A stretch of DNA of 64,000 bases, taken from IMG/VR virus record IMGVR_UViG_3300011008_000003. One strand, written 5' to 3'. The position numbers and the translations under genes were made by a program. The DNA is from a virus. Taxonomy: Duplodnaviria > Heunggongvirae > Uroviricota > Caudoviricetes. The notes under the pieces were generated by a model. The model was not told the DNA's origin and searched no databases. It saw only the letters and a list, made by a program, of their open reading frames with translations. Position 1 is the first letter of the stretch, and each line of letters opens with the position of its first letter. Positions 1,129-56,819 of the stretch are shown piece after piece.

Positions 1129-2259
1129 ATGGCAAATAAATTGCTAGCTAAATTGAAGAAAGAAAAGGCGTTCAACGATATTCTTGTCACTGAACAGCCC
1201 AAAGATGAATGGCTCTCAACGAACTGTATTCCTGTAAACCTGTTGCTTTCAGGTAAGATTCAGGGCGGTATCAAGAAGGGCTGTATGTCTCAGATTGGTG
1301 CTGACTCTTCTTTCGGTAAATCTATTATCGGTTATTCTGTTCTTAAGGCTGCACAGCAGGCAGGAATGGATTGCTTTATCGTCGATACTGAAAACGCAGT
1401 CAACTATAAGATTTTGACTGGTATTGGTGTCGATATGAAGGATGTCGGTGTTATCAATACCAAGCTCATTCCGGAAATTAAGCAGTTCTTCTCCAAGATG
1501 GCTCACGGTCTTACTCGAGCAGAACAGCGTAACGTTTTCGTTCTTTTCGACTCTTGGGGCCCGATTGTCGAACTTCAGGTTATGGAAAAGGCAGAAGAAG
1601 GTTCTGCAGCTGTCAACATGAGTTCTGCACGATTCAAGGCTGAACTTGCTGAAGTTATTAACGCTTGTAACTTTACTACTTTAATTCTCAACCACGTTTA
1701 TGCTACTCTCCAGATGTACGGTGATCCGGTTACAGTCGGTGGTGGTAAGAAGCTTTACTACCTTTCTGATGCTATCATGCTCGCTACTTCTGCTAAGAAG
1801 GATAAGGATAAGGAAGGTAATATTCGTGGTAAGATTATTACGGCTAAGACACTTAAGGGTCGTGCTGCTAAGGAAATGAGAACAACTCATTATCTTATCC
1901 AGCATAACGGCGGTATTAACCCGTATTATGGCTTGCTTGATGAAGCTCTTGACTCTGGCGCTGTCTATAAGCCGAAGCCTGGTTATTACTCTCGTACTGA
2001 TTATGACGTCGATAAGGAAACTGGCGAAGTCACTAAGCAGTGGAAGGAAGAACAGCTTTACTGTGCTGAATTCTGGATTCCTCTTTACAAGGATGAAAAG
2101 TTCAAGAAGTATGTCGAAAATAAGTTCTCTTATGACGACAACGTTCTTATCGCTTCCAACCAGGATGTCATGAAGTTGATTAGCGGTGAACAGGAAATTG
2201 TCAATGACGGAATTCCTGACACTGACGATGAAATTGACCTTGGTGAAGACGAAGAATAA
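1129..2259 (+). CDS. uvsX: UvsX/RecA-like recombinase
   Basis: Walker A-like GADSSFGKS, DTE and FDS motifs, GGG motif, GGINPYYGLLD typical of T4-type UvsX. Confidence 0.9.
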   Translation: MANKLLAKLKKEKAFNDILVTEQPKDEWLSTNCIPVNLLLSGKIQGGIKKGCMSQIGADSSFGKSIIGYSVLKAAQQAGMDCFIVDTENAVNYKILTGIGVDMKDVGVINTKLIPEIKQFFSKMAHGLTRAEQRNVFVLFDSWGPIVELQVMEKAEEGSAAVNMSSARFKAELAEVINACNFTTLILNHVYATLQMYGDPVTVGGGKKLYYLSDAIMLATSAKKDKDKEGNIRGKIITAKTLKGRAAKEMRTTHYLIQHNGGINPYYGLLDEALDSGAVYKPKPGYYSRTDYDVDKETGEVTKQWKEEQLYCAEFWIPLYKDEKFKKYVENKFSYDDNVLIASNQDVMKLISGEQEIVNDGIPDTDDEIDLGEDEE

Positions 2260-8495: not shown

Positions 8496-9686
8496 TTAAA
8501 ATGCCGCCTTGAAGTTATATACTGGCTTGATAATCTTTTCGATAGAGCAAGTAGGTTCAATATTCGTAATGATTTCCTGCATCGGCTTGTATGCCATAGG
8601 AGACTCATCAATCGTCGCAGAAGACACACAGGACGTGAAAATTCCCTTCATAGCATCTTTATATTCTGACATGGAAATGGAGTTCTTAGCGTCCGCTCTG
8701 GTCATTAAACGGCCTGCACCGTGAGGAGCGCTGTAGTTCCAGTCTTCATTTCCCTTACCGACACAAATCAAAGAGCCATCACGCATATTCATCGGAATAA
8801 TAACACGTTCACCAGCCTGTGCAGAAATAGAACCCTTACGAAGAATCATATTCTTAAGGTCGATATAGTTATGAATAGTTTCAAACTTTTCGACAACCTT
8901 GAAACCCATTTCCTTGACAATCACATCGAGCATTGCGGCACGGTTCATAACGGCAAACTGCTGAACAATTTCCATGTCATGCAGATAACCCTGCATGTGT
9001 TCGCCAGTAAGATATGAAAGATTCTTAGGAACAGAGAAATGGTCATAATCCTTCATAAGTTCCTTAATTTCCGCATCGGTCTTTCCCTGATTCTTATACT
9101 TGGAAATTTCAGCGCCGCGAATGGCTGTCAGGTCGGCACAATCCTTAATTGCAAGATTCTGCCAGTATTCACAAGTAGCGACACCCAAATGACGAGAACC
9201 GGAATGAATAACTACATAGAATGCACCATCGTCGTCTTTATCGACCTCAATGAAATGATTGCCTCCGCCGAGGCTTCCAATCGACAGAAGTTCTTCACGA
9301 CGAACGTCAGCGATAAGTTCTTCAAACTTTTCGTCAAATTCATTACCGAAACGGTGACGGTTAGTTCGATGTTCCTTACCGGACGGAATCTTGGTCTTGA
9401 TTACCTTGTCGAGCTTACCGAATTCGATAAACTTATCTTTAAGCTTCGCAACCAACATTCCGCAACCAATATCAACACCGACAAGATTAGGCACAACCTT
9501 ATCCGTAATAGTCATGGTAGTTCCGACCGTGCAATCCTTTCCGGCATGTACGTCAGGCATAATACGAACCTTAACGTCTTTCGCCCAGCATTGACACATC
9601 ATATTCAAAATCTGTGAATATGCCGCATTATCAATATTGTCCGTATAGACACGGGCTGTATTATATTTTCCTTGAATGTCAAGCAT
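8496..9686 (-). CDS. rtcB: RtcB RNA ligase
   Basis: MPDVHAG, VGVDIGCG, GSLGGGNHFIE, HSGSR, HNY, SAPHGAGR, DESPMAYK. Confidence 0.95.
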   Translation of the reverse strand: MLDIQGKYNTARVYTDNIDNAAYSQILNMMCQCWAKDVKVRIMPDVHAGKDCTVGTTMTITDKVVPNLVGVDIGCGMLVAKLKDKFIEFGKLDKVIKTKIPSGKEHRTNRHRFGNEFDEKFEELIADVRREELLSIGSLGGGNHFIEVDKDDDGAFYVVIHSGSRHLGVATCEYWQNLAIKDCADLTAIRGAEISKYKNQGKTDAEIKELMKDYDHFSVPKNLSYLTGEHMQGYLHDMEIVQQFAVMNRAAMLDVIVKEMGFKVVEKFETIHNYIDLKNMILRKGSISAQAGERVIIPMNMRDGSLICVGKGNEDWNYSAPHGAGRLMTRADAKNSISMSEYKDAMKGIFTSCVSSATIDESPMAYKPMQEIITNIEPTCSIEKIIKPVYNFKAAF

Positions 9687-10990: not shown

Positions 10991-11055
10991 ATGTTGTTCC
11001 TTTTGGTTTATACCTATAATATAGAAAAAAGGTTGACTGTTGTCAACCCCTTTTT

Positions 11056-11144
11056 TCGTTGAGGTAGCTGGAGTCGAACCAGCGGTGTGTCATTAGCCGT
11101 ACAGGATTCAAAGTCCCGCGCCCTCGCCACTGAGCTATACCTCA
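11056..11144 (-). tRNA. tRNA-Gln(UUG), long variable arm
   Basis: Cloverleaf, loop CT-TTG-AA, GTTCGAC T-loop. Confidence 0.85.
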
Positions 11145-11345
11145 ATATTGACTTTTTGACACGTACTAAGTCTAAAAGCGCCTCGGCTACAAAGGTGAAC
11201 GGAGTATTGTGCCTTGTATGAAGAAGCCGCATCAGTTGTCCGTTGCTATCAAGGACTTCTTCAATTCGCCATACTGCCGATTTAGGATGTCGGCATCTTC
11301 CGATATGCAGACGAGGTTTGTACCTTTTACCTCCAAGCATGACTT

Positions 11346-11423
11346 TAGTACTCCTGTCTGGACTTGAACCAGAAACCTATCGTTTAGGAAACGACCACTC
11401 TAATCCATTTGAGCTACAAGAGC
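11346..11423 (-). tRNA. tRNA-Arg(CCU)
   Basis: Cloverleaf, loop TT-CCT-AA. Confidence 0.85.
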
Positions 11424-12107
11424 TTAATTTGATAATTGTTGTATTCTAATAGTTTGTTTTAATCTATAAATTTCAGTTTCTCTGTCTTCTAATGAAAGTT
11501 TTTGCCAATCAGACCAACGAATTCTTTTTAATAATCTCCATCCTAAATTAATTAAATTTTCAGTACGTATTTTATCATGTAAAATACCAGTTTTTGTATA
11601 ATGCTGTTCACCATCTACTTCAATATATACTTTAATATCAGGCCAAGCATAATCTAAAAAATATCTATCTACATGATATTGTTTTTCCGCATTAGTAAAT
11701 ATTTCATTAAAATATTGTTCTGCATATGATTTCCGTTTTTCTCGTGCTGTTGTATATCTCGATATATTTTTATAATTTTCTTTTTGAACAATAGAAATTT
11801 GTTTACGTGTTTCAATCGTTTGATAATGTTTATATGCGGCTTCTGGTAATGTGCCATTTAAATAATGTTCATGTCTAGTTTCTGTATATTTAGCAACACG
11901 TAAATCATTATCTTTTGTTAATCCTTTATTCCATGCTTTATGTCCTTTTCTGGGTTTATATTTTCCTTTTTCACGATTTTCATGTAATATTTTTAAACAT
12001 CTATCATCTTTATTAGGATTTAATTTACACAAACGTTCATGATTTCGTAATGAATTTGCATTTTTGCATATTTTATTGCAATATTTACATACATAATCTT
12101 GTTTCAT
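11424..12107 (-). mobile_element. Free-standing homing-type endonuclease (Zn finger plus DUF559/Vsr-like nuclease) inside tRNA operon 1
   Basis: CKYC..HERLC, WNKGLTK, YFLDYAW...IEVDGEQH; AT-rich, inserted between tRNAs. Confidence 0.7.
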
Positions 12108-12139: not shown

Positions 12140-12221
12140 TAGTCCACGGGGTTGGAGTTGAACCAACACATAGAACCTTATAAGAGCCCCTGCCTGATAC
12201 CAATCGGCTTATTGCCCGTGG
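12140..12221 (-). tRNA. tRNA-Ile(UAU)
   Basis: Loop CT-TAT-AA. Confidence 0.75.
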
Positions 12222-12225
12222 ATAA

Positions 12226-12307
12226 TAGTGGACTTGGCCGGATTCGAACCGTGCGACTCCCGTATTAAAAGTACGGTACTCTAAAATGCCTGCTGAGTTA
12301 CAAGTCC
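12226..12307 (-). tRNA. tRNA-Lys(UUU)
   Basis: Loop CT-TTT-AA. Confidence 0.8.
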
Positions 12308-12312
12308 AAAAA

Positions 12313-12395
12313 TAGTACACTAGGCGGGCTTCGAACCCGCATTTGCAGCTCCAGTTACGGCTAACGGATTAGAAGTCCGACCCGACTACTAGTGT
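12313..12395 (-). tRNA. Atypical tRNA-Arg(UCU), reduced D arm and long variable arm
   Basis: Loop CT-TCT-AA, T arm and acceptor stem intact. Confidence 0.6.
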
Positions 12396-12398: not shown

Positions 12399-12474
12399 TC
12401 GTGGACCTATCCGGACTTGAACCGGAATCCGAAGATTAAAAGTCTCCTCGTCTAACCAATTGACATATAGATCC
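12399..12474 (-). tRNA. tRNA-Lys(UUU)
   Basis: Loop CT-TTT-AA. Confidence 0.85.
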
Positions 12475-12480: not shown

Positions 12481-12556
12481 ATTGAGGTGGAGAGATTCGA
12501 ACTCCCGAATGCATGGGTCAGAACCATGTGCCTTGAACCAGCTTGGCTACGCCTCA
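12481..12556 (-). tRNA. tRNA-Gln(CUG)
   Basis: Loop TT-CTG-AC. Confidence 0.85.
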
Positions 12557-12562: not shown

Positions 12563-12595
12563 AAAAAAACAGTTCCCGTATTGCTACAGGAACTG
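12563..12595 (-). terminator. Attenuator terminator, tRNA operon 1
   Basis: CAGTTCCTGTA-GCAA-TACGGGAACTG followed by T7. Confidence 0.85.
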
Positions 12596-12626
12596 AAATA
12601 ATTGAATAAGGTAAACTCTTACGCTA

Positions 12627-12704
12627 TCATTCGTTTCCCATAGCAAAACACACAGCTATTTGCTGTTTTCTTATCTGTTTTACTTGTTTAACGAATTGCT
12701 TCAT
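12627..12704 (-). CDS. Leader peptide 1, MKQFVKQVKQIRKQQIAVCFAMGNE
   Basis: AAAGG RBS; CAA/CAG, AAA, ATA, AGA codons match downstream tRNAs. Confidence 0.85.
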   Translation of the reverse strand: MKQFVKQVKQIRKQQIAVCFAMGNE

Positions 12705-12796
12705 TTTCTTTAACCTTTATAATTATATATAACAGTTGTTTGTTAATTTTCGCTTTTTAATATAGTAAATTTTTCTCTAGTTGTAAACCCTAAAAA

Positions 12797-13420: not shown

Positions 13421-13506
13421 TAGCCGAGGATGAGAGGCTCGAACTCCCATGCAGTTTCCCACGTCCGCTTTCTAGGCGGGTGCACTACCAATTGTGCGTA
13501 TCCTCG
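13421..13506 (-). tRNA. tRNA-Ser(AGA)
   Basis: Loop CT-AGA-AA, long variable arm. Confidence 0.8.
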
Positions 13507-13687
13507 AAAATTCCATAATATATTATTCCCTGAGCGCCGCGAAATATTAGTGTAATATCTGTATCTCTCTTTCAGTCTCGAAGACGATTTCTCAGTAATA
13601 TACGGCGTAATTCGCAATCACCCATTACGCTTGTATATTCGAAGTTAACACCGTTGCGCCATGTTAACTTATACACTCTATATTATG

Positions 13688-14669: not shown

Positions 14670-14702
14670 AAAAAAGAAAAGCCGCAGATTGCGCTGCGAC
14701 TT
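14670..14702 (-). terminator. Attenuator terminator, tRNA operon 2
   Basis: AAGTCGCAG-CGCAAT-CTGCGGCTT followed by T-rich tract. Confidence 0.8.
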
Positions 14703-14727
14703 AATAAAGTTTTATAATAAAACCCTA

Positions 14728-14814
14728 CTAGTCGCGACACCCCATATAATACATGGAATAACCGAACATCGAGCTCGGAACTAATGACCATGAATATGAA
14801 TAAGAGTGCAACAT
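14728..14814 (-). CDS. Leader peptide 2, MLHSYSYSWSLVPSSMFGYSMYYMGCRD
   Basis: AAGGA RBS; rich in Ser(TCN), Tyr, Met. Confidence 0.85.
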   Translation of the reverse strand: MLHSYSYSWSLVPSSMFGYSMYYMGCRD

Positions 14815-15455: not shown

Positions 15456-16469
15456 TTATTTTTCAAATTTTCTTCTAAAATATTTTCCTTCAAAATCTTT
15501 TTTAAAACGTTCTAAGGTGTCTTCAATAATTCTTTTTGTATAACCTGTTTCTTTTTCAACTTTTCCAACCCATCCAAATTTTTGTAAATCAATACCACAA
15601 TTTAAAATAAGATTCTTACGTTCTATCCAAATTTCTTCTGATATAATATTTGGATTACCTTTACCTGATTTATCTTTTGGATATAATGATTCTTTTTTAA
15701 TTTTTGGTTTCTTTTTTAATTTTCTTATTTTTATATTAGGATATTGTTCTTGAAGTATTTTTATTTCTTCTAAATTTTTTAATTTATCTACTTTATATAA
15801 TAAATTATCTTTTTCTGAATAACGCCAAAATTCACAGTTAAGTTTTTCGATAATATATGCTTGCCTACACTTATCACGTAATATTCCTTTTATTTGTGTA
15901 TGTTTAGATTGTTTTTCATCATATTCAAAAACAATATTTAACACTTTATCATAACCATCGACATGATAAGGTCCTACTTTATATTCGCCGCCATTCATAG
16001 CGTGCTGTAAATGCCAATTATTTTTTATATTTAGTTCATCAATAAATTTACATGCTTTTTCATTATAATTACATTGGCAATTAATTATATTTTTACGTTC
16101 CAGCATTTTTTCTGCAAGTTTAGCCCTAGATTCAGGTGTATGTGGTTTACTAATACCTTTTAATTCACCAGAAGCGTATTTTCTTTTTATTGTTTCTGCA
16201 GATTTACGTTTGCTGTCAATATTAATTGTTTTTCCTAATGAATCTTTTGGTAATTTAGTTTTTTCTTCGCAATCCTTATAATGCTTATATAATTTTCGTC
16301 GTGAATAAAATATTTGATTGCAATATTGGCAAGTCCATTCTTTATATTTTGTTTTAAAACATTTTTCCGGATGCATTATATGCATATGTTCATATAATGA
16401 CATTTTTGTATCAAATACATTATTACAATAACTACATTTCCATTTATTTATTTTTATATTCGAACCCAT
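15456..16469 (-). mobile_element. Free-standing homing-type endonuclease (two Zn fingers, NUMOD3-like, PD-(D/E)XK-like)
   Basis: CSYC..H..H, CQYC..H..C, KPHTPESRAKL, VDGYD...VFEYDE; AT-rich. Confidence 0.7.
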
Positions 16470-17324: not shown

Positions 17325-17355
17325 AAAAAAGGTCCCTACTTTTCGTAGGAACCTT
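17325..17355 (-). terminator. Attenuator terminator, tRNA operon 3
   Basis: AAGGTTCCTAC-GAAAA-GTAGGGACCTT followed by T tract. Confidence 0.85.
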
Positions 17356-17383
17356 GTAAAACCTTTTTGATTCAGGAAATGAA

Positions 17384-17476
17384 TTATTGGTTTGTTACCT
17401 TGTCCCTACTGTGTACTACGAAACACCAGCTAAGCAAGCTGAGGAGTAGTAAACTAGTGAGACAAACCTTTTTCAT
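17384..17476 (-). CDS. Leader peptide 3, MKKVCLTSLLLLSLLSWCFVVHSRDKVTNQ
   Basis: AAAGGA RBS; Leu, Ser(AGY), Trp, Cys codons match downstream tRNAs. Confidence 0.85.
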   Translation of the reverse strand: MKKVCLTSLLLLSLLSWCFVVHSRDKVTNQ

Positions 17477-22053: not shown

Positions 22054-22155
22054 CTAGATGACCCTGTGCTTGTGTCGATCCTTATCATGCTTACCGAAAC
22101 CTCGTCCGTCGCGGCGAGTCTTGCAATCATGAATGTCAACTACAAACTGAGTCAT
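22054..22155 (-). CDS. Leader peptide 4, MTQFVVDIHDCKTRRDGRGFGKHDKDRHKHRVI
   Basis: AAAGG RBS; Asp, His, Lys(AAG), Arg(CGN), Gly codons match downstream tRNAs. Confidence 0.85.
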   Translation of the reverse strand: MTQFVVDIHDCKTRRDGRGFGKHDKDRHKHRVI

Positions 22156-32110: not shown

Positions 32111-32218
32111 TTACTTGAACCTGTGCACTGAATTGTCAATCGCAAATACACGTTCTGCAAATTCTGCAATACGTTCTGCTGCGACCGCGATGAATTCAAT
32201 GTTAAAGTTCTTGTTCAT
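32111..32218 (-). CDS. Leader peptide 5, MNKNFNIEFIAVAAERIAEFAERVFAIDNSVHRFK
   Basis: AAAGG RBS; Phe, Glu, Ala, Val, Ile(ATY) codons match downstream tRNAs. Confidence 0.85.
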   Translation of the reverse strand: MNKNFNIEFIAVAAERIAEFAERVFAIDNSVHRFK

Positions 32219-36220: not shown

Positions 36221-36299
36221 TCGCGCCTGGTGAGAGATTCGAACTCCCGACCGGATGATTACTAAACATCTGCTCTAAAGCCAGCTGAGCTAACCAGGC
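36221..36299 (-). tRNA. tRNA-Thr(AGU)
   Basis: Loop TT-AGT-AA. Confidence 0.8.
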
Positions 36300-36473: not shown

Positions 36474-36549
36474 TCGTCAGAGTGGCTGGGCTCGAACCAG
36501 CGACCCCTCGCATCCTAGGCGAGCTCTCTACCAACTGAGTTACACTCTG
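36474..36549 (-). tRNA. tRNA-Pro(AGG)
   Basis: Loop CT-AGG-AT. Confidence 0.8.
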
Positions 36550-36835: not shown

Positions 36836-36898
36836 CTAATCCAAAAGCACTCCTGGATTCGTCGGATTAGTATTATTTGTGTTCTTCATAAAAGTCAT
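36836..36898 (-). CDS. Leader peptide 6, MTFMKNTNNTNPTNPGVLLD
   Basis: Asn, Thr, Pro codons match downstream tRNAs. Confidence 0.85.
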   Translation of the reverse strand: MTFMKNTNNTNPTNPGVLLD

Positions 36899-37063: not shown

Positions 37064-38254
37064 TTAATCAACTTTTTTAACATTTTTTATTTCGACTTGT
37101 TTTGCAAAATATTCAAACATTTCGATTGCCGCTTGAGGATATTCTTTCGGATAATTCCTGGACCAGTTATAGAAAACAAGCTGAAGCATTTTTGTCAAAT
37201 GTTTGCTATTAATAAATTCTACATTGGTCAAATAAGAAATCATCTGCGTAATATCATTTTGGGTGGTTCCGACATCATCTGTTATCTTACGATAGACATT
37301 AAACATTTTCTGCCGTACCGATACGACATATTTCTTATACTTGTTCAGATAATATCTTAAAGTAAACATATAGTTTACGTATTCATATTTATCTTTACCG
37401 TAGAAAATTGTCGCTGACGATTTCAAGTTTCGTGAAATATGCAAGATAGCGACTTTCTTTCCGTTAATGTCGCATCTTACATAGTAATCGCCAGGATATG
37501 CATTCTTCGTCTCAATCGAATATTCAGACTGATATTCGACAAATTCACAATCTTTACCGAGAACTTCGGTACAGGTTTTTCTAAAAGAATCGGGCGTAAT
37601 CATAGTTTATGTTCTTCCAAAATATTCAAAATATCTTTTCATACAGTTAGTAAGTCTTTTCTGAGTACCTTTACTTACCTCCTCATAAGACTTTAACTGT
37701 GCTTCTTTTATTTTTTTACGATTGACAATAAGATCTCCAATAGATTCGACTATCATCCAACCAATAGCTATCGCAATGATAATAGGACCAAGAAGAATAC
37801 AAATTCCTTCTGAAACTATTTTTTCAGCAATATTGTCAAATTTACAAGTCTTATCCGGAATAATAATACATGCCATTATAATGGTAGAAATAATACAGTA
37901 AACTATTAATGCGGTCAACATATTTTATTTCTCATAATTATTCACACTGATGTTTCTTACGTCACAATAACGAAAAACTTTAATCTGGTGCGGATCATGT
38001 TTATTATAAAATCTATTTGTACCGCCGAAACCAAAAACATCTTCTCGTTCCCAATCCTTCATAGAAAGTAATTCACAACGATTACCGCTGTATTTGGGAC
38101 AAATCTGATATGTATCTGGTTCAGGTGCAGGTTCATGATAATATATGATACCGCATATAGGGCTTACTATAAGTATTGAACAGATATAAACAACTTTCCA
38201 TTCAGAAAAATGCTTAATGACTGGTCTGAAAAGACGGTACAAATAGTTTTTCAT
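37064..38254 (-). other. Three hypothetical genes
   Basis: ORFs 37064-37603, 37607-37921, 37925-38254. Confidence 0.55.
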
Positions 38255-38257
38255 AGG

Positions 38258-38695
38258 CTAGTGATTGTCGTTGTCGATGATAATCTTTGTTTCTGGACAG
38301 AATACGAACTTGAAAAGTGCTTCAGGATTATCGATGAAGCCAGCAAGCAAGCGACAATTAGAATCGACACTCTGATGGTCGATATAACCGACCATATTTT
38401 CTACCGATTCCGGAATTTCAAGAGTGATTTGCTTGGTAGCGAAATAATCGATAACTGCCTGACGCTTTTCAGGTTCATAATCCATACCTGTGTCCTTGAT
38501 AGCTACGAGCCAGTAGTCAAGCAAAGAATACGGAGTGTCCAAAACATCGTAACCCCATCCATATTCACCTTCACCACGGGCGGCAAGAGTCTGCGGGGCA
38601 GGATTGAGGTTTTCACATGCGCTAGCGCAAGGGAAGCAGATTGTATGTTCAGAAGAACTGTTTGTTTCAAAAACGTTAGGTCTAATTGTCTTCAT
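38258..38695 (-). CDS. Conserved phage protein with IR..VFETNSSS.H N-terminus
   Basis: MKTIRPNVFETNSSSEH and YIDHQS motifs; next to radical SAM gene. Confidence 0.6.
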   Translation of the reverse strand: MKTIRPNVFETNSSSEHTICFPCASACENLNPAPQTLAARGEGEYGWGYDVLDTPYSLLDYWLVAIKDTGMDYEPEKRQAVIDYFATKQITLEIPESVENMVGYIDHQSVDSNCRLLAGFIDNPEALFKFVFCPETKIIIDNDNH

Positions 38696-38745
38696 GATTA
38701 TTTCCTTTTTGTGAAATATAGTAAATCGGGATGTACTTGTAAACC

Positions 38746-39783
38746 CTACCAACCCTTGATAGATAACTTAAACAAGTCCCTAATATTTTCTGTTCCGTCG
38801 AAGCTATGCCTCATATCGAGCGGAGCCGTACTCATTCGGCAAACCTTCATAGTTGGAACGTCGATAAACATAGTACAGCATGTAATATTGTACATATCAT
38901 CCTTAACCTTCGTATCAGAGCCTTGATACAGAGTATTCCATGTACTATCGTTTACGCCCATAAGAGATTGAGGCTTGACCTGTTCAATTCCTAAATCGTC
39001 AAATGAAATAGTATTGAATTCAAATGCAAGAATAGGCAAAGACTTCTTGAGCCATTCGATATTCTTGTTTATCGACATAAATTCTTTCTGTAGATGGTCA
39101 TGACCGCGACGAAGATTCTTATATCCAAGGACGATAATCTTCCTATTACGGACAAACGGAATATCGGCTTCGTTGAACAGTCCGGCAATCACATGAATAA
39201 TTACATTCGAACCGAGCATATCGATAATTTTCATATCGTCCGTATTCGAAGAATCTGTCATGGAAACGCCGATACCGTTGACTAGTTTTTCATTTACCAG
39301 TTTCAGTAACAAATCCTTATTCCTGGCAAGATGTTTCTGGTTTACGGTAATATTGGAAATAACGCCCTGCTTTTTCAGAAGTTCAAGGAACCAAACCAAA
39401 TCAGGATGTTCAAAGATATTCCCGCCGCCGATTGCGACTTCAGTACCAGGCTGCAAAGTCTTAATCATCGGTTCAATCTGTCGAAGATTTCCATTCACGC
39501 CTTTTACGGTAGAATTCTCGTGGCAATAGATACAGCCACCGTCACAGCGGTCGGTAATCTTTATGTCGAAATTCTCAGGAAATTCATAAGTCAGATGGTC
39601 TGTTTCTACATCAACCCAACGATTTACACGTTTGCTGTCTGGACCTATTTCATTGATATAATATCCGGTTTCCTTAACTTTCGTACCGTCCGCATAAAGG
39701 ATCGTACGGTGATTGCCATTTACATAACTTCCGACAATTTCTTTATTGTCTGTAAAAATTTTTATCGCTTCGTCTTGTTTCAT
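38746..39783 (-). CDS. Radical SAM protein
   Basis: CDGGCIYC (CX3CX2C), EVAIGGG. Confidence 0.85.
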   Translation of the reverse strand: MKQDEAIKIFTDNKEIVGSYVNGNHRTILYADGTKVKETGYYINEIGPDSKRVNRWVDVETDHLTYEFPENFDIKITDRCDGGCIYCHENSTVKGVNGNLRQIEPMIKTLQPGTEVAIGGGNIFEHPDLVWFLELLKKQGVISNITVNQKHLARNKDLLLKLVNEKLVNGIGVSMTDSSNTDDMKIIDMLGSNVIIHVIAGLFNEADIPFVRNRKIIVLGYKNLRRGHDHLQKEFMSINKNIEWLKKSLPILAFEFNTISFDDLGIEQVKPQSLMGVNDSTWNTLYQGSDTKVKDDMYNITCCTMFIDVPTMKVCRMSTAPLDMRHSFDGTENIRDLFKLSIKGW

Positions 39784-39790
39784 CTTCGTT

Positions 39791-41960
39791 TTAAGGTAAT
39801 TTTTCAATACTCATTAGAGTTTTTGTATTTTCAAGCCACATTTTTACTTTTGACGGGACTTCATTAAAAAGAATATCTTTCATATAACATACTACTGCGC
39901 CGTTGATTTTAAGATAAACCTTATCGGCCGCTTCAGTATGTGCATAAAAGAACCATGAGTGTTCATCATAAGAACCTAAATATCGAGTACCGTATACTCG
40001 TATTGCTTGTCTAAAACAGCTACTGTCAACCCATGGTGTAAATATTTCATTAATTACATCAAGATTAATGTAACATATTATCTGTTCTTTTTTGCTACAA
40101 TCATCTATGAACCCGACATAAACATTTTTGTCTACTGTCATTTAAATAATTCCGGATGATTATCTTTCAGCTGTTCATACTGGTTCATATTCTTTACGTA
40201 TATCTTAGAGAAGTTGTTAAGGAACCAGGCACGCTTTTCAAGTTCGTCCTTGATGGAATCATTCTGTTCGATAGAACTGGACGGAATCATGGTAAAGGAC
40301 TTTTCAAAATAATCCGGATGAACCTTCATTACTGTGTCGAGCTTCATGTAAAGCTCGTCATAATGGGTCTTCAATGTATTGATACGGTTGTTAATAGTTT
40401 CAAGGTCTGCGGCACGGCGTGCCATTGCTTCGTTTAAATTATCCATTTGTTTCTCCATCGAGATTGTCAATTACTTTTTCCAAATATTTGTTATGTGCTT
40501 TCGTACATAGGTCAAACGGCGACATTTTCATCAGCTGTTCCTTATAGCGGTGAACCTGCCAAGGAAACTTAAATGCTGGGCTATCCTCTATATAGATAGA
40601 ATTCCTGTCATACAGAATTTCTACCTTGATATAGTATCTAAAGAAATGCCAAAAGCCTTTAACCTCATGTATCTTAATAAAGATAGTAAAGTTTTCAGGA
40701 ATATTGTTGTAAAAATATTTTTGTAAATCAAATGTATCGTCACAGATAGCAGTCTTTGTTTTTCCTTGAATAATCTTAATCATAAGGAAAACAAAAAATG
40801 CAATTAATACTGCTTCGACATCATCGAAAAATCCAGCATCAATCAGGTCTAATACCGTCGAGGTCATTTATGACTCCTTCCATATAAACGTTATATGCTT
40901 GTATCGTAAGTTTCTTAAAATCGATATTCATAATTTTCTTCTTAACTCGCTTGATAGACAGAAAACTATTTAAAGGTTCTTCGAAATTAAATACTGGAGC
41001 ACCGCTATAATAAACATTGATTAAAAAAACGGGCGTAGTTTCATCATCGTTGAGTCTTGTATCGAAACATATTCCAAGCTCTTCAGGAATTTGACGGGCG
41101 GTTTTTAACCGCAGATACCATCTCGTAAGTTCATCCCATAAGACAAGAGTACGTTCCTTAACACGTATACGGGACAAACGAAACAAGGATGAACCTAATA
41201 GATAAAAACTGACACCCAACCCGACTAATGTTATTAAATCTTCTAAAAATCCATCGTACATAGTTTAGCCCTCGATAGAATTGAACGTAGATTCAATATA
41301 ATCGTTATATGCGTCGACACAGAGCTGCTTTATGTCGGAATTTAAAACCTTTTCCTTGAACTTCTTTGCCTTAAATCCGAAAATAAAGCTGATATCCTTT
41401 CCGAACGGATAATATACCCATTTACCGTCACCGTAATCATATGTTACAGTAATATTGATACTGTAGCTCGGTTTTAAAACTTTGGGACGCCAGTCATAGT
41501 CTACGTCAAGCCTGTAGCAGTTAGGTAAAGACCGAAAATGATCCGCAGCCCAGACTCTGAGCTTATTGCAGATACTGTTTACTTCAGCGTCGGTATGTTC
41601 AATATACATAGCAATAAGACCGGTAGAATTGACGATAGCGCTTACAACACACAAAATATCTTTAACTTCCATTATAGATTACTCCTTGTGGTCTTCTGCG
41701 TATTCGTCAGCCGTATTGTAATGCTTCCAGTAAGTGATATGATGTTTACCGGACCATGTACCTTCGCAAATAAGGTTATCCTTGATTTTTCCGAGAATCT
41801 TTTCCTTATTTTCCTTTTCGTCAAGTACGATATGTGCGATGTCCCAGCGGGGGAACAAGAGCCAGTCTCGCCAAGAAAGTTCCTTATGTTCGGATTCTTT
41901 CTTCTTTACCGGTTCGGTCACATCAGACGTGTGTTTAAGTTCTACTTCCGTAATTTTCAT
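39791..41960 (-). other. Six hypothetical genes including three tandem paralogs (40439-41672)
   Basis: Shared C-terminus L..xAYNxYxExxxxxxxG. Confidence 0.55.
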
Positions 41961-42042
41961 ATTATTCCTTGGTTATAGACATAATATAATAAAAACCAGG
42001 CATTTTGTCAATGCCTGGTTCATGGTTTTATTTAATGAAATA

Positions 42043-42483
42043 TTATTCGATTGTGAATATCTTCGGCTTAGCAGTTTCTGCGACCGGGATAGTGATTCGC
42101 AACAGACCGTTTTCGACATGAGGCTTCAAGTTGTCAATATCCAGATTGCTCGGAACTCGGAGGCTGCAATGCTTTGTGGTCTTGATGAGCTTTTCGAAGA
42201 CCTTGCGCTTGTCGGCGGCAGCCTTTTCTTCTTCTGTAAGTTCCTTTTCCTTGACGTCGATAACGAGATAATTTACACCGTCCTTGACTTCCGCGGAGAC
42301 TGTTACATCTTCCTTGGTCTTGCCCGGGATTGCAAGCTCGACAATGTTCGTTCCGTCTTCTTCTTCGTAAAGGTTAATCGGCAAGGAAACCTTGCGAGTA
42401 GCCACTTCTGCATCCTGTACGAAGCCCTGGCGTTGGATGAACGGGTAAAAGAGTGCGTCGATAATATTATACATGTTTTCCAT
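42043..42483 (-). CDS. Hsp20 small heat-shock protein
   Basis: PINLYE, ELAIPG.TKEDV, ENGLLRITIP. Confidence 0.85.
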   Translation of the reverse strand: MENMYNIIDALFYPFIQRQGFVQDAEVATRKVSLPINLYEEEDGTNIVELAIPGKTKEDVTVSAEVKDGVNYLVIDVKEKELTEEEKAAADKRKVFEKLIKTTKHCSLRVPSNLDIDNLKPHVENGLLRITIPVAETAKPKIFTIE

Positions 42484-42668
42484 GATTTTATTCCTTTAGA
42501 GACCTTACGTGTCTCTTTTCGTCGCTATTGAACAATCCTCGGTCCGAATTCGTAACCGATTCTCCGACGGCAGCGACAAATCCGTCAAACCTTGTCCGTA
42601 TTTGCTATATTTATAAACTGGACTGGACAATTTTCGTAAATATAGCAATTTTCACGGAACTGTCAACC

Positions 42669-43250
42669 CTACTTGCTCGGTTCTTGCATTACGGCGCCGG
42701 TATGGACGTTAATATCCCAATACTGCATGGCGTTACGGAACCATTCGACCTGTTCCAGGGAAATCGGCGCGTAACGGTGATAATCGATACCCAAATCGAA
42801 ACCGTTAGTCTTAGCGAAAGCACGACCATGGATATGACCGAACAAAGTGATATACTTACCGGCTCCGAACTTCTTGTCAGCGTCCTTGACATACGGCGTA
42901 ATCGGCTCATGGACACAGAGATAGTTCAGCTTGTTTTCAGTGAACGTGTAGAAATCTACAAATTCGACATTTTCCAAGCCCTTGGCAAGTTTCTTGTACT
43001 TGTCGTAATCCCTACGTTCATAATTACCGCATACCCAGATGAGTTTCTTGAAATTCAAGTTATTGATAATATCCTTGCACTTCTCGAGCTCACCGAAGTC
43101 ACCGCAATGAACGACAGTATCTTGCATCGTGACGTTCTTGTTCCAGTTAGAAATCATTTCCAAATCCATCTCGTCGACATTAACGAACGGGCGACGGGAA
43201 TAATTCAGAGTACGTTCCTGACTGAAATGGGTATCGGAAGTGAAATACAT
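42669..43250 (-). CDS. Calcineurin-like metallophosphoesterase
   Basis: SDTHF, GDFG, GNYE, HEP, GHIH. Confidence 0.85.
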   Translation of the reverse strand: MYFTSDTHFSQERTLNYSRRPFVNVDEMDLEMISNWNKNVTMQDTVVHCGDFGELEKCKDIINNLNFKKLIWVCGNYERRDYDKYKKLAKGLENVEFVDFYTFTENKLNYLCVHEPITPYVKDADKKFGAGKYITLFGHIHGRAFAKTNGFDLGIDYHRYAPISLEQVEWFRNAMQYWDINVHTGAVMQEPSK

Positions 43251-43373
43251 CGTACCCTTACGGTTGAGGGCGTCGACTGCATTCTTTAAAGTCTTATAAA
43301 GGGTAGATTCGTATTTCTTATCGTTTTCCTTAAGACGGACAGCGATGTATTCGTTATGTTCTGCGTCCTTAGG

Positions 43374-43811
43374 TCATCCGAAGAAAGTATTTGGTTTCTT
43401 GAACCATTCGCCGAATTCGATATTTGTAGTACGTGCCGGATGTTCCTTGCTTCTCGGAATCCAGAAAACGATGGCGCTCGCCGTAGACATTGCTGTATGT
43501 TCCCACCATGTCTGTTGGGCTAAAGCGTCCGTGCCGACGATTTTTTGATAGTTGGCATTTGTAGGAGTAAGGACAGTGCCTTTGAAACCTATCTTTTCCA
43601 ATAAGTCATAAGCTTCAAATCTCCAGTCCTCTTCATAGTTCTTTCTTGGACATGGACCGGCTAGGAAGATAGAATTCTTGCAGTTCTTTATTTCATTGAA
43701 CTTTCCTTTTGTATTACACGGTGTCAGAATCTTGAAACCGTAGTCTGTTTTCTTTTCATTGAGTACGAAACTTGGTACTCTCTTGTCTAAGTATGCTTTT
43801 ATTTTTTCCAT
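43374..43811 (-). CDS. Nucleoside 2-deoxyribosyltransferase-like domain, in frame with the phosphoesterase across a TGA
   Basis: IFLAGP, WR, WE, IVFW, TTNIEFG. Confidence 0.65.
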   Translation of the reverse strand: MEKIKAYLDKRVPSFVLNEKKTDYGFKILTPCNTKGKFNEIKNCKNSIFLAGPCPRKNYEEDWRFEAYDLLEKIGFKGTVLTPTNANYQKIVGTDALAQQTWWEHTAMSTASAIVFWIPRSKEHPARTTNIEFGEWFKKPNTFFG

Positions 43812-43849
43812 ATGTTTATCTCTTTAATAAAAAGTCATAGTATTTATTA

Positions 43850-44195
43850 TTCTCATCTTTTGGACAATGCGAGCGGACAGGTTAAGCCTAGTAGGTAATA
43901 CTAGACTTTCTTATTCACACTTTTGGCATAAAGCTTCGCGTGTCAGTCAGAAGGACTTATAGGTATGCTTACGGGTCGGTCATCCTGTACTCCGGCTATA
44001 TCATACCAGGCCATGGCGGCTAAGTGTACGGTTTGCTAGACCGTACTTCGATAATCGGTTCGTCACCCGATACGAAACCTTACATACCGAGTCAGTGATA
44101 TACCTCGATTCTGGGTATATGACGGCTCACCCTCTACCGATAGTTCCATTGGGTTGGTCTTCGTTCCGAGGAATAAGTCTTTACGATGTCGAATC
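43850..44195 (-). ncRNA. Structured leader or ncRNA candidate of about 340 nt
   Basis: GC-richer, ORF-free, multi-hairpin stretch between promoter and gene. Confidence 0.45.
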
Positions 44196-44248
44196 AAATA
44201 TAGTAAAAAATAAAACGCTAATGAAAATTAGCGTTTTTATCTGGATTT

Positions 44249-44971
44249 TTATTTGTACCAGTCGTCAGACGGAGGCTCTTCTCCGATTGACCATCCTAGC
44301 ACGTCTTCCCATTCCTCATAAGAATCAGGGACGAAATAGATTGCCTCATCGCCGACGTCTTCCTTGAGTTTATCAAGAACCTTTTTGTATGCGGCTCTAG
44401 GACCATAGCTACGGGCATAGTCAAAATCATATCCTTTAAACATTTTTTTCAGATATACGAAGTCATAATCTTCTGTTACCGGCTCGATATTTTCAAGAAT
44501 CTTTTTCGCTGATTCGAAATCCATCTTACATTTTGTTCTTTCTTCGAGTTCGGTACCTTCCTTTTTCGCTATCATACGGTCGAGAATATCGGAAAGCTGT
44601 TCGAAAACTTCAGACCAGTCTTTGAAATACGGAATGGTATTTACTACGGCGTCTTTATGGTTTAAACGCTTTTGCCAAACGGATCCTCCCAAAGGCAGGA
44701 AAATATTATCGTCTATGATGATAGTTTTTAAATCTATTTTAGAGACATCGCCCGCTCTTTTGTCATTATATACAGGCATAATATCAATTCGCCACCAATT
44801 AATACCGTCTTTCGTTTTCGTAGGTATAACCAAGTCGTAATATTTTTCCGAACCTGATGCTATAGTAGTACCGAAATATGTATAATTCCTAATTAACTGA
44901 ACGTTATCTGCCGCTTTTCTTGCAGATAAATATTCATCATCTAGCCAACGCAGTGGATTAAAATTTTCCAT
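44249..44971 (-). CDS. Hypothetical late protein
   Basis: TATAAATA plus GAGG upstream. Confidence 0.6.
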   Translation of the reverse strand: MENFNPLRWLDDEYLSARKAADNVQLIRNYTYFGTTIASGSEKYYDLVIPTKTKDGINWWRIDIMPVYNDKRAGDVSKIDLKTIIIDDNIFLPLGGSVWQKRLNHKDAVVNTIPYFKDWSEVFEQLSDILDRMIAKKEGTELEERTKCKMDFESAKKILENIEPVTEDYDFVYLKKMFKGYDFDYARSYGPRAAYKKVLDKLKEDVGDEAIYFVPDSYEEWEDVLGWSIGEEPPSDDWYK

Positions 44972-45046
44972 AGTTTCCTCTTTTTTATTATTTATAAGAA
45001 AACCCGGCTTTTACACCGGGTTTAAGATACTATGAATCAGAAAATC

Positions 45047-46027
45047 CTACGGAACGTAAAGAATTGTCGGATTGTCCGGATGGATGTCGAAACATTTCAT
45101 CCAGAATTCGTTTTCCAAGCAATACTTTCTCCATTCCTTTTCGAGAGCGTCGAAACAGACGATATTGGCATGAACGATATTCTTGTTCTTGTCAATCTTG
45201 TCCACCTTGACGTTTTCTGCAAATTTCTTACAGATTTCGGCGAAATCCTTAGTCTTTTTAAGATACTTGCCAGTCATGCTGAAATGAAGCATTTCCGGTT
45301 CGAACTTAACCTGAGGAAGCGGTGCCGTAATCAGGTTCTTCTTCGTATATTCTTCCCAAAGCGATTTAAAAACAGCCTTGTTGAACGGCTTGCAATGGAT
45401 ATGCTTACCGGACTTGGAAGGAAGAGTAAAGAATGAACGAGCAAGATAAGCCTCTTTAGCATCTTTGTCAGAAAGAGTCAGAATCGGTGCAGGATTCTTC
45501 CAGTTCTTGAGATTCGACTTATGAGGTTCACACTGTAAAACCATGTCGATAATATCATTCTCAAAAGGAAGATATTCAGCATCGAGGTCTAAAAGCCATA
45601 CCTTTTTCTTGCGTGCCTGGCATACACCGCCGTTCGCAGAGGCGACGAGGTGATACGGCGAGCTGTAGGTACCTCCAGACTCCACCTGGGTCGCAATATC
45701 CTTTAACATGCGTAAAGATATGTTCTTGTAATTACGCTTGTTAAGACGCACGTATGCGCGAACATTGAAGACGTCGCAAAGCGTGGTGATTTCATGCTTA
45801 AGTTCTCTAAGCTTATCCGATGAATGAATAAGATAGTCCTTGAGAGAACGGCTGTGCATGTTGCCGTGATATGCCGGATCCGGAACACCGTCGGTCATAG
45901 GGTCGTCAGACTGGCGGCGAAGTAACTGGATATACCAAACGTCGCCGTCGTTACGAGTTCCGTCAAGATTATCGTCAAGTCGTTGTTTATCGAGCCATTC
46001 ACAGATTAAATCAAAATTGTCTACCAT
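45047..46027 (-). CDS. Protein with AEP/primase-like motifs
   Basis: WLLDLD and SKSGKHIH resemble AEP motifs I and II. Confidence 0.4.
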   Translation of the reverse strand: MVDNFDLICEWLDKQRLDDNLDGTRNDGDVWYIQLLRRQSDDPMTDGVPDPAYHGNMHSRSLKDYLIHSSDKLRELKHEITTLCDVFNVRAYVRLNKRNYKNISLRMLKDIATQVESGGTYSSPYHLVASANGGVCQARKKKVWLLDLDAEYLPFENDIIDMVLQCEPHKSNLKNWKNPAPILTLSDKDAKEAYLARSFFTLPSKSGKHIHCKPFNKAVFKSLWEEYTKKNLITAPLPQVKFEPEMLHFSMTGKYLKKTKDFAEICKKFAENVKVDKIDKNKNIVHANIVCFDALEKEWRKYCLENEFWMKCFDIHPDNPTILYVP

Positions 46028-46812
46028 TTTTACTCCTTAATCAAAATCATGTTTATTGAATATGGCAGTAGATAAAAATATAGATGGAATAAAAATATGT
46101 GCCAAAATTATAATAATACCTAGAGCGGCATCACTGAAAGAATTTCTGTCCAATGTATCTAAAAACGGAATTGTCACGTAATTCAAAATTACAAATGATA
46201 TTACAAAGAGAAGAATTGCAACAATTTTAATAAGCGATTTCATTATTTAATCCTCCATAAAGTGTCTGGTGCCATGATTTTATCGATACCTTCTTGAAGT
46301 TTCAGTTCAGTCTTTTTAAGTCGGCATGCTTCGTCATGGAACGCATTATAAATTTCTTTCAGTTCACTTTTAATTAATCGGTCAAGTTTTTCCCAGATTT
46401 TGTCATATTGCTTTGCTGTCGTATGGTATAGGTCAATATGAGCTTTGTTTCCGGTTTTCGTATAATAGTTAAATGCATAAAAACCGCTACAGATATAATC
46501 GAAACTACCAAAGCAGATACGACGGTCAATATCGGTATAATATCTGTCAGATATAAAATTTTCCATATCGACATCACGTAAGACGAGATTATCGTTTTTC
46601 GTCAAGAAAAGCATTGGATAATCAGATTCAATAAAATCTTTGAATTCTTTTCGACTGATAGCCTGAGCTTTGGCTGGAATGTCGTAATTCATGGTTTACT
46701 CCTTAATTTTTTACTAATATAGCAAATCATAATTGTCTTGTAAACCCGTTTGTATAATAAAAAACGGGAACCGTTGCCGGCTCCCGTTTCCACTCAACCT
46801 AAGGAAACAAAC

Positions 46813-47478
46813 TTAGTGGTTGCTGAGGTATTCGTTAATGACATCCTGGAATTCGGTATCGATAACGGCGGTGCTGACAGCTGCTGCCGGCTTAGAACGA
46901 CCAACGAGTTCTGCAACTTCACGCTTGGATTCCATACGGAACTGAGTCGTCTGGACTTCCTTTTCGATTTCAGCGATCATTTCGTTGCAATCAACGCCGA
47001 AGTCGCCGATAACGTTGCGGTCGCACATCTTGAGAGTATTAATCTGAACGTTGAGAGCAGTAAGCTTGGCTTCGATGAGAGCCTTGTTCGTATCGATGTT
47101 CTTGAGAGTGTCGCGAACCTTAATGCATTGCTGTTCGGTGTTCTTCCAAGCAGTTTCAATGGTGTCACGAGCAGTCTTCATGCCCTTGTACGTGATGTAC
47201 TTGATCTTTGCTTCGTCGAGCTTAGCAGAATCGGTCTTGCTAGCTTCGATGAGAGATTCATAAGAACGCTTGTTAGCAACGGTCTGAGCGTCAAGTTCTT
47301 CGAACTTAGCCTTAAGTTCCTTTGCATTCGTGAGCATGTCTTCTGCAGACTTGATGTAACGTTCTGCATTCTTGTTGTACTGGTAACGGATTTCTTCAAT
47401 CTTATCCTTCGTAGAGATAAGAGAGTTGAGGCCGCGCTGAGACTTGTGGAAGAGAACGGAGAAGAAGTTGAACTTCAT
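46813..47478 (-). CDS. PspA/IM30-like coiled-coil protein
   Basis: About 220 aa all-helical heptad pattern. Confidence 0.45.
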   Translation of the reverse strand: MKFNFFSVLFHKSQRGLNSLISTKDKIEEIRYQYNKNAERYIKSAEDMLTNAKELKAKFEELDAQTVANKRSYESLIEASKTDSAKLDEAKIKYITYKGMKTARDTIETAWKNTEQQCIKVRDTLKNIDTNKALIEAKLTALNVQINTLKMCDRNVIGDFGVDCNEMIAEIEKEVQTTQFRMESKREVAELVGRSKPAAAVSTAVIDTEFQDVINEYLSNH

Positions 47479-54591: not shown

Positions 54592-54599
54592 AGACTAAC

Positions 54600-55490: not shown

Positions 55491-55502
55491 TGGCTTACCT
55501 CC

Positions 55503-56216: not shown

Positions 56217-56235
56217 ATTGTGTTTTCCTTTTTTG

Positions 56236-56595: not shown

Positions 56596-56685
56596 TATTC
56601 TTTTGACCTTTATAATATAGTAAAAAAGACCGCTTTTGTAAGCGGCCTAAAGTAAAAATATTTCGCAAATTTTAATTAATTTACA

Positions 56686-56763: not shown

Positions 56764-56819
56764 TCTTATTACCTGTATTATATATAACGGCAATAGGATA
56801 AAAGTTGCAAAACTAGAAA

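What the first reader, a model, noticed from the sequence alone, without database searches (positions are those of the whole stretch)
12563..12735. Attenuator 1: Gln/Lys(AAA)/Ile(AUA)/Arg(AGA) sensor
The run AAA CAA GTA AAA CAG ATA AGA AAA CAG CAA ATA precedes tRNAs Gln(CUG), Lys(UUU) x2, Arg(UCU), Ile(UAU), Arg(CCU) and Gln(UUG). GCTATGGGAAAC (12633-12644) can pair with the terminator arm GTTCCTGTAGC and starts 12 nt after the last control codon, about the downstream reach of a stalled ribosome. tRNA-Lys(UUU) is the known target of PrrC.
Basis: partly seen in the sequence, partly recalled or inferred. Interest (0 to 1): 0.85.

Follow-up and report, generated by a model that had tools for sequence, protein, structure and literature searches.

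The report
Leader-peptide attenuator gating phage tRNA genes
A rumen jumbo phage puts a tiny translated 'test' gene and a switchable transcription stop in front of a block of its tRNA genes. The test gene is written in the codons those tRNAs read, so the phage probably makes them only when ribosomes read those codons slowly; I found no paper describing this control for tRNA genes.

Summary
On the minus strand, two candidate promoters precede a 25-codon leader (12704-12627), a 12-bp antiterminator, a terminator (12595-12563) and seven tRNA or tRNA-like genes. Eleven of leader codons 2-16 are cognate to those tRNAs against 8% background. Modelled termination drops when a ribosome stalls at codons 3-13 and returns at codon 16. 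This is one of six such modules in the window, together covering all 20 amino acids; leader-to-operon matching is the best of 720 permutations. In related 410-424 kb phages tRNA-Gln(CUG) sits in three different operons, and CAG control codons move with it; Cys and Ile(GAU) behave similarly. One relative uses the same design, with Ala codons, before an alanyl-tRNA synthetase whose closest hits are Fibrobacter, the likely host. PrrC matched 1 of 81 Fibrobacter genomes, RloC-like genes 8. Best reading: a general, isoacceptor-specific feedback loop for tRNA shortage. The mechanism is classical; the controlled genes (tRNAs, in a phage) are the new part. This scan noted the same design earlier in other phages (139 findings, at least 91 genomes). 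Nothing is shown experimentally.

The parts
12759..12787 (-). Sigma70-type promoter (TTTACA-17-TATATT); predicted start near 12752
   Evidence: the same GGGTT(T/G)ACA-17-TATATT consensus occurs about 20 times on this strand; start site inferred
12724..12731 (-). TATATATA box, likely a variant of the T4-like late promoter TATAAATA
   Evidence: the extended motif occurs on the minus strand only before the six tRNA leaders; function inferred
12714..12718 (-). Shine-Dalgarno-like AAAGG, 9 nt before the ATG
   Evidence: sequence
12627..12704 (-). 25-codon leader ORF (attenuator A1)
   Evidence: frame, length and stop position kept in L001, L002, L003/L004, L190-L195
12657..12701 (-). Control codons 2-16 (3 CAA, 2 CAG, 3 AAA, 2 ATA, 1 AGA); codons 3-10 also form segment 1, which masks the antiterminator when no ribosome is bound
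   Evidence: codons 4-15 invariant at the DNA level between the window and the G002 type
12635..12646 (-). Antiterminator 5' strand (segment 2, codons 20-24); pairs with 12592-12581
   Evidence: 12 bp, -15.5 kcal/mol, 6/1000 shuffles
12563..12595 (-). Intrinsic terminator: 11-bp hairpin 12595-12570 (-15.6 kcal/mol) plus U tract 12569-12563
   Evidence: one rumen RNA-library contig ends at 12564 (weak)
12482..12556 (-). tRNA-Gln(CUG)
12401..12474 (-). tRNA-Lys(UUU), copy 1
12316..12395 (-). tRNA-Arg(UCU)-like RNA without a normal D arm; an extra hairpin with a D-loop-like motif lies behind the anticodon arm
   Evidence: read from the sequence; not called by default ARAGORN or Rfam; called Arg(tct) in L001/L002 at a relaxed threshold
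12229..12307 (-). tRNA-Lys(UUU), copy 2, with a different anticodon stem
12143..12221 (-). tRNA-Ile(UAU)
   Evidence: cloverleaf fold; called in L001, L191, L189, L254
11424..12107 (-). Zinc-finger/DUF559 endonuclease ORF inserted in the operon; absent in L001/L002/L191; probably a mobile homing-type gene
   Evidence: tRNA spacing
11348..11423 (-). tRNA-Arg(CCU)
11058..11144 (-). tRNA-Gln(UUG), last gene before the hairpin/promoter at 11054-11018
14679..14814 (-). Sister attenuator A2 (Tyr/Met/Ser-UCN)
17329..17476 (-). Sister attenuator A3 (Trp/Leu/Cys/Ser-AGY)
22054..22155 (-). Leader ORF of sister attenuator A4 (Asp/Arg-CGN/Lys-AAG/Gly/His)
32111..32218 (-). Leader ORF of sister attenuator A5 (Phe/Glu/Ala/Val/Ile-AUY)
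36836..36898 (-). Leader ORF of sister attenuator A6 (Asn/Pro/Thr)
   Evidence: its antiterminator was not significant in the shuffle test

Best explanation
A1 is a ribosome-mediated transcription attenuator that puts a phage tRNA operon under negative feedback from the decoding speed of the codons those tRNAs read. When charged Gln, Lys(UUU), Ile(AUA) and Arg(AGA) tRNAs are plentiful, the ribosome runs to codons 17-26, covers segment 2, the terminator forms and transcription stops at about 12563. When one of them is short (cut, degraded, uncharged or overloaded), the ribosome stalls in codons 3-15, covers segment 1, leaves segment 2 free to pair with the terminator's 5' arm, and RNA polymerase reads into the tRNA genes. 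With no ribosome, segment 1 pairs with segment 2 and the terminator forms. Six such units monitor the whole code by isoacceptor group. Shown by sequence and computation: the anatomy, the codon match, the alternative folds, co-movement of tRNAs and codons. Inferred: translation of the leader, actual switching in the cell, promoter use, the host, and the natural trigger (most likely host tRNA depletion during infection, by whatever cause).
For: (1) Switch position: modelled terminator probability is 0.99 without a ribosome, 0.03-0.50 with the A site at codons 3-13, and at least 0.96 from codon 16 (12-nt footprint). (2) Codon match: 11/15 against 8.1%. (3) The true leader-to-operon assignment ranks 1 of 720 in the window, 1 of 720 in G001 and 1 of 5040 in G005. 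(4) Natural experiment: Gln(CUG) lies in operon A1 (window, G002), A3 (G001) or A2 (G005, L222, L225, L232); the leader of that operon has 2-3 CAG and the orthologous leaders without the tRNA have none. Cys and Ile(GAU) follow with exceptions. (5) Isoacceptor split: A1 uses AAA, AGA, ATA; A4 uses AAG and CGN; A5 uses ATT/ATC; A2 uses TCN and A3 AGY, each matching its own anticodons. (6) Pairing is kept through sequence change: G001 A1 has a different terminator and a matching different antiterminator (14/1000 shuffles); in A3 a T-to-C change in the terminator 5' arm goes with A-to-G in both the 3' arm and the antiterminator. (7) Internal positive control: in G002 the same architecture, with four Ala codons, precedes an alanyl-tRNA synthetase gene. 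(8) Weak: RNA-library contigs of two studies cover the leader and stop at 12564 and 12580.
Against: No direct experiment. At equilibrium the terminator wins at every ribosome position in the G002-type A1 and in A3, so those would need the kinetic head start of the antiterminator. The A6 antiterminator is not above shuffles (351/1000). Arg(CCU) has no AGG in this leader, and GTA/GTT/TTC codons in the control zone have no tRNA in this operon. Some A5 leaders keep Ile codons where no Ile(GAU) gene was detected downstream (L211, L219, L224). The genomes are related, so the permutation tests are not independent, and operon limits were set by hand. The RNA contigs have depth 2-3, may be DNA, and start upstream of the predicted promoter.
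Confidence: 0.88

Rival explanations
1. A dedicated counter-defence sensor for PrrC: the leader evolved to detect cleavage of tRNA-Lys(UUU) by PrrC and replace it.
For: Three AAA control codons and two Lys(UUU) genes with different anticodon stems; an RtcB ligase 3 kb downstream; phage tRNA-Lys rescues phages from PrrC170 (PMC11555353) and from PARIS (PMC11464382); one clear PrrC in the likely host genus (E 4e-112).
Against: All 20 amino acids are monitored in the same way. PrrC matched 1 of 81 genomes sampled (incomplete MAGs) against 8 of 81 for RloC-like proteins. The G001 and G005 A1 leaders have more AGA, CAA and ATA than AAA (2 each). RtcB lies behind a separate promoter at 11046.
Confidence: 0.1
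2. Same switch, but its purpose is routine codon compensation rather than defence: it tops up tRNAs that are scarce in the host when phage mRNA overloads them.
For: AAA, CAA, AGA and ATA are minority synonymous codons in two Fibrobacter-genus genome samples (25-42% of Lys, 23-42% of Gln, 6-13% of Arg, 10% of Ile), so their tRNAs are plausibly scarce. A conditional switch suits load balancing.
Against: The same codons are minority codons in the phage's own genes (AAA 223 vs AAG 381; CAA 53 vs CAG 129; ATA 48 of 431). The sister units cover abundant codons too, so the set replaces the whole pool. Host tRNA levels were not measured. Not exclusive of the best explanation; it differs only in the trigger.
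Confidence: 0.3
3. An amino-acid starvation sensor in the classical sense.
For: Mechanically, uncharged tRNA stalls the ribosome just as missing tRNA does (PMC1183508); the alaS attenuator in G002 senses charging.
Against: More tRNA does not cure a lack of amino acid. Lys, Arg, Ile, Ser and Gln isoacceptors are split between operons and the leaders follow the anticodon, not the amino acid.
Confidence: 0.12
4. Chance: an A-rich spacer with a constitutive terminator, and a separate promoter or processing for the tRNAs.
For: The DNA is AT-rich, and AAA/CAA/ATA/AGA codons arise easily in A-rich sequence.
Against: Only 6 nt separate the U tract from the first tRNA, leaving no room for a promoter; five sister leaders with other compositions also match; codons track moving tRNAs.
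Confidence: 0.02

Closest known systems
Multivalent leader-peptide attenuators of amino-acid operons (E. coli thrL, ilvL of ilvGMEDA, also trpL, hisL, leuL, pheL); mechanism in PMC1183508, operon names from own knowledge
   Same: Short leader ORF with control codons, mutually exclusive 1:2, 2:3 and 3:4 pairings, intrinsic terminator, stalling geometry, several amino acids per leader.
   Different: Controls tRNA genes, not biosynthetic enzymes; sits in a phage; resolves isoacceptors; six parallel units span the code; no match to any Rfam leader family.
E. coli pheST attenuator (tRNA-Phe-dependent attenuation of phenylalanyl-tRNA synthetase; cited in PMC4082710)
   Same: Senses charged tRNA through leader translation and controls a part of the translation machinery. 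The alaS unit in relative G002 is a direct analogue.
   Different: A1 raises the tRNA itself rather than the synthetase; no sequence homology was shown.
Anabaena PCC 7120 trn L-array (PMC8421152)
   Same: A tRNA array that is silent by default, induced by translational stress and co-regulated with rtcB.
   Different: [quoted passage not shown]
Phage tRNAs as counter-defence (T5/SP15 tRNA-Tyr against retron Eco7, tRNA-Lys against PrrC170 and PARIS; PMC11555353, PMC11464382, PMC10264068)
   Same: Phage tRNAs replace tRNAs destroyed by host defence.
   Different: There the supply comes from a strong promoter or resistant anticodon arms; neither PMC11555353 nor PMC10264068 mentions attenuation.
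T-box riboswitches
   Same: tRNA-responsive terminator/antiterminator switch.
   Different: T-boxes bind uncharged tRNA directly and need no leader translation; no T-box hit in the window, and a missing tRNA could not trigger one.

Membership tests
Ribosome-mediated (leader-peptide) transcription attenuator | Short leader ORF with a ribosome-binding site, downstream of a promoter | tested here: met
   conserved in relatives
Ribosome-mediated (leader-peptide) transcription attenuator | Control codons related to the function of the downstream genes | tested here: met
Ribosome-mediated (leader-peptide) transcription attenuator | Intrinsic terminator between leader and regulated genes | tested here: met
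Ribosome-mediated (leader-peptide) transcription attenuator | Antiterminator exclusive with the terminator, free at the control codons and covered at the stop codon | tested here: met
   (computed); equilibrium switch seen in the window and L001, kinetic only in the G002 type
Ribosome-mediated (leader-peptide) transcription attenuator | Translation-dependent read-through shown in vivo or in vitro | not testable with these tools
   only low-depth RNA-library contigs
Described leader families (Rfam Thr, His, Leu, Trp, Phe leaders) | Sequence/structure match to the family model | tested here: not met
   Rfam gathering scan of the window gave only tRNAs and cow-rumen-2
Described leader families (amino-acid operons, pheST) | Regulated genes are biosynthetic enzymes or a synthetase | tested here: not met
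   A1 is followed by tRNA genes; only the G002 alaS unit meets it
T-box riboswitch | Stem I specifier loop and T-box bulge | tested here: not met
   no Rfam hit
PrrC counter-defence | Host carries PrrC and its action induces the operon | tested here: inconclusive
   1 of 81 genomes of the inferred host genus; induction not testable

The most novel reading that the evidence does not exclude
The phage carries a complete, modular tRNA-pool surveillance panel. Six or seven codon-programmed attenuators each report loss of one isoacceptor group and switch on exactly the replacements, an inducible counter to any tRNA-destroying host defence, known or unknown. Leaders are re-written when tRNA genes move between operons, so the grouping may record which tRNAs the host's nucleases cut together (here the AAA/CAA/AGA/AUA readers).
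Probability: 0.5. Interest if true: 0.9.

Novelty: new variant of a known kind. Interest (0 to 1): 0.8.

Why it matters
Why phages carry tRNA genes has been open for about 50 years (PMC10264068): codon compensation or replacement of tRNAs destroyed by the host. An attenuator shows that this phage treats tRNA supply as conditional and anticodon-specific, and it makes the question directly testable: read-through at each of six terminators reports which tRNA runs short during infection. It also extends textbook attenuation to a new output, the tRNA itself, closing a direct feedback loop. The leaders are ready-made isoacceptor-specific biosensors for finding the targets of uncharacterised defence nucleases. 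The reshuffling seen in this rumen lineage gives comparative evidence that the codons are selected for sensing.

Tried and rejected
No cultured relative: blastn against 50,697 phage records found only short tRNA-sized matches, Tyr and Val among those listed. No whole genome is held for the window. Rfam gave no leader or T-box family. A 16-nt terminator pattern in viral contigs returned mostly chance hits. A gapped pattern for more attenuators in five genomes was too narrow and uninformative. CRISPR spacers: no exact short match between window 37100-57000 and 101 Fibrobacter-genus genomes, only 66-88% gene-level matches with no other genus as control, so the host stays an inference. More distant RtcB relatives G003/G004 (63-64%) have 38-39 tRNA matches, but my detector found no leader-terminator units before them. 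In one search the script picked the wrong hairpin for G005 A1, so that row was not used; its terminator and a plausible antiterminator were read by eye. Seven literature searches found no report of attenuator-controlled tRNA genes; the library lacks most subscription papers. RNA contigs cannot show strand, ends or level, and are kept as a weak hint. A peptide function for the leader was rejected: orthologous A1 peptides share only the I-R-K-Q codon core and differ in length (18-25 codons).

Full report
Setting. The window is phage DNA of 38% G+C with more than 50 tRNA genes on the minus strand, T4-like genes (UvsX-like recombinase, tail sheath stabiliser) and an RtcB ligase at 8496-9686. No cultured relative exists in the phage collection. 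The closest relatives (RtcB 85-95% identical) are uncultured contigs, including near-complete genomes of 411-424 kb: G001, G002, G005. Laid RNA runs come from cattle, sheep and unspecified gut metagenomes, and Rfam finds cow-rumen-2 RNA. The alanyl-tRNA synthetase of G002 is closest to Fibrobacter (66-75%, against about 55% or less for most other lineages). The host is therefore inferred to be Fibrobacter, from a relative's gene.

Observation. The leader ORF runs 12704-12627 with AAAGG 9 nt upstream. The control run is codons 6-16. The antiterminator strand starts 12 nt later and is a little longer than claimed: 12 contiguous pairs with the terminator's 5' arm and loop, -15.5 kcal/mol, matched by 6 of 1000 shuffles. 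The terminator is an 11-bp hairpin with seven U, ending 6 nt before tRNA-Gln(CUG), so the tRNAs can only be made by read-through. Downstream lie Gln(CUG), Lys(UUU), an Arg(UCU)-like RNA, Lys(UUU), Ile(UAU), an inserted DUF559 endonuclease gene, Arg(CCU) and Gln(UUG). The Arg(UCU) RNA has no normal D arm; G001, G002 and G005 have an ordinary Arg(UCU) in this operon.

Switch. Free RNA folds codons 3-10 onto codons 19-26, masking the antiterminator, with the terminator formed (z -3.9). Holding the translated part single-stranded gives terminator probabilities of 0.99 with no ribosome, 0.03-0.50 with the A site at codons 3-13, 0.57-0.70 at 14-15 and at least 0.96 from codon 16 (12-nt footprint; shifted by one codon for 9 or 15 nt). 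The switch point falls at the end of the control codons. L001 behaves the same. In the G002 type the terminator is stronger and wins at equilibrium, although the antiterminator forms on the nascent RNA, so there the switch would be kinetic. These are models, not measurements.

Codon match. Eleven of codons 2-16 are cognate to the operon's anticodons, against 8.1% in 6247 codons of window genes. The leader uses AAA, CAA, AGA and ATA, which are minority synonyms both in the phage and in two Fibrobacter-genus samples. Five sister modules precede the other tRNA clusters (ATG at 14814, 17476, 22155, 32218, 36898). The true leader-to-operon assignment scores best of 720 permutations in the window and in G001, and best of 5040 in G005. 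Split amino acids follow the anticodon: AAA in A1, AAG in A4; AGA in A1, CGN in A4; ATA in A1, ATT/ATC in A5; TCN in A2, AGY in A3.

Natural experiment. Relatives keep the modules but move tRNA genes between them. Gln(CUG) is in A1 in the window and G002 (2 CAG in A1), in A3 in G001 and four other contigs with that tRNA in view (2 CAG in A3, none in G001's A1), and in A2 in G005, L222, L225 and L232 (3 CAG in A2, none in G005's A1). The only CAG without the tRNA among the A1, A2, A3, A5 and A6 leaders tabulated lies next to the stop of some A6 leaders, outside the control zone; the window's A4 leader has one at codon 3. Cys moves from A3 to A2 with 3-4 TGY; Ile(GAU) moves from A5 to A2 with ATT, with exceptions; a G005 Asn/Pro/Thr/Val unit has 4 GTA. 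Three locations need at least two moves, but I built no tree. The constant core of A1 is Arg(UCU), Gln(UUG), Lys(UUU) and Ile(UAU) with the ATA-AGA-AAA-CAR codon string in all types. Pairing is kept by different sequences: G001 A1 has a changed terminator and a matching changed antiterminator, and A3 shows a three-way compensatory change. In G002 the same layout with four Ala codons precedes alaS, the known pheST-type use of this mechanism.

Promoters. Besides the sigma70-type promoter at 12787-12759, each leader has a TATATATA box just upstream, one base from the TATAAATA box seen before structural genes; A1 of G001 and G005 has TATAAATA itself. The units may thus work both early and late in infection (inference).

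Expression. RNA-library contigs from two studies cover the leader and stop at the terminator: 12564-12786 (one mismatch) and 12580-12775 (none). Depth is 2-3, DNA is not excluded, both begin upstream of the predicted start, and hairpins can end assemblies. This is a weak hint only.

PrrC. A PrrC model matched 1 of 81 genomes of the host genus; full or near-full AAA_13 (RloC-like, PADLOC PDC-S06) proteins matched 8 of 81. The genomes are incomplete samples. tRNA-cutting defences therefore exist in the likely host, but nothing singles out PrrC, and the six modules cover the whole code. The logic still favours tRNA shortage over amino-acid shortage as the signal, because more tRNA cures only the former and the leaders resolve isoacceptors. 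Whether the shortage comes from nucleases or from overload cannot be told from sequence.

Comparison and novelty. By every feature testable here it works like, and is built like, a ribosome-mediated attenuator (PMC1183508). It is not a member of any Rfam leader family or a T-box. The nearest functional cases are pheST attenuation (PMC4082710), the stress-induced Anabaena tRNA array, which is promoter-controlled (PMC8421152), and phage tRNAs that defeat retron, PrrC and PARIS defences (PMC11555353, PMC11464382, PMC10264068). Seven searches found no paper on attenuator-gated tRNA genes. This scan's own notes report the same design in other phages (139 findings, at least 91 genomes); they are unchecked and I found none on this DNA or naming this host. 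I reached the reading before seeing them. What this locus adds is the tRNA-codon co-movement, the alaS unit and a probable host.

Verdict. Real; a new variant of a known kind. Confidence in the attenuator mechanism 0.88; PrrC-specific purpose 0.1; interest 0.8.

Noticed in passing
window 12395-12316 (-): Arg(UCU)-like RNA with intact acceptor, anticodon and T arms, only about 9 nt where the D arm should be, and a hairpin with a D-loop-like motif behind the anticodon arm. L192 and L195 carry a similar odd RNA; L192 also has a normal Arg(UCU).
   Followed up: partly
L178:845-975 (+), genome G002: Leader with four Ala codons plus terminator directly before a 445-aa alanyl-tRNA synthetase (N-terminal type) most like Fibrobacter; its terminator hairpin is identical to that of window A5. 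Antiterminator 75/1000 shuffles.
   Followed up: partly
window 56763-56620 (-): Possible seventh attenuator: TATA-type box, 25-codon ORF with several TCA codons, antiterminator candidate (24/1000 shuffles) and terminator, upstream of unannotated protein genes at 56595-54061.
   Followed up: partly
L177:2088-2188 (+), genome G001: tRNA-Ile(UAU) of the A1 operon has a roughly 27-nt hairpin inserted in the anticodon loop; possibly an intron-like insert needing a ligase such as RtcB.
   Followed up: no
L180, about 1300-1395 (+), genome G002: The A2 (Tyr/Cys/Ser) leader has an in-frame TAA at codon 9, unlike its orthologues: a broken attenuator, an assembly error or read-through.
   Followed up: no
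window 36999, 36365, 33505, 32571, 22314, 21905, 13920, 13818 (-): A repeated structured RNA frame between tRNAs: stem, GCA(T/A), short helix, GTTCCTAT, variable cargo (sometimes a tRNA-like piece), then CCGC and the closing stem. Several copies sit between promoter and leader. No Rfam family.
   Followed up: partly
window 13423-13506, 36223-36299, 36476-36549 (-): tRNAs with A34 anticodons (Ser AGA, Thr AGU, Pro AGG) and an Ile(UAU), all rare in bacteria (own knowledge).
   Followed up: no
window 11054-11025, 15428-15403 and others (-): Many promoters have a hairpin built around the -35 box followed by a U run, so the same element can end the upstream transcript and start the next.
   Followed up: no
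window 11424-12107 and 15456-16469 (-): Zinc-finger ORFs inserted in or beside tRNA operons; the first has a DUF559 endonuclease domain and is absent from close relatives, like T4 segB.
   Followed up: partly
window about 11174-11310 and 13500-13660: Non-tRNA intergenic stretches have the deepest RNA-library contigs in run X3 (up to several hundred, from related strains), suggesting abundant uncharacterised small RNAs.
   Followed up: no
L182, L184 (genomes G003, G004): More distant 419-422 kb relatives have one long mixed tRNA array with no leader-terminator units detected, so the attenuators are specific to one subclade.
   Followed up: partly
L192:2470-2826 (+): A relative encodes a tmRNA.
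   Followed up: no
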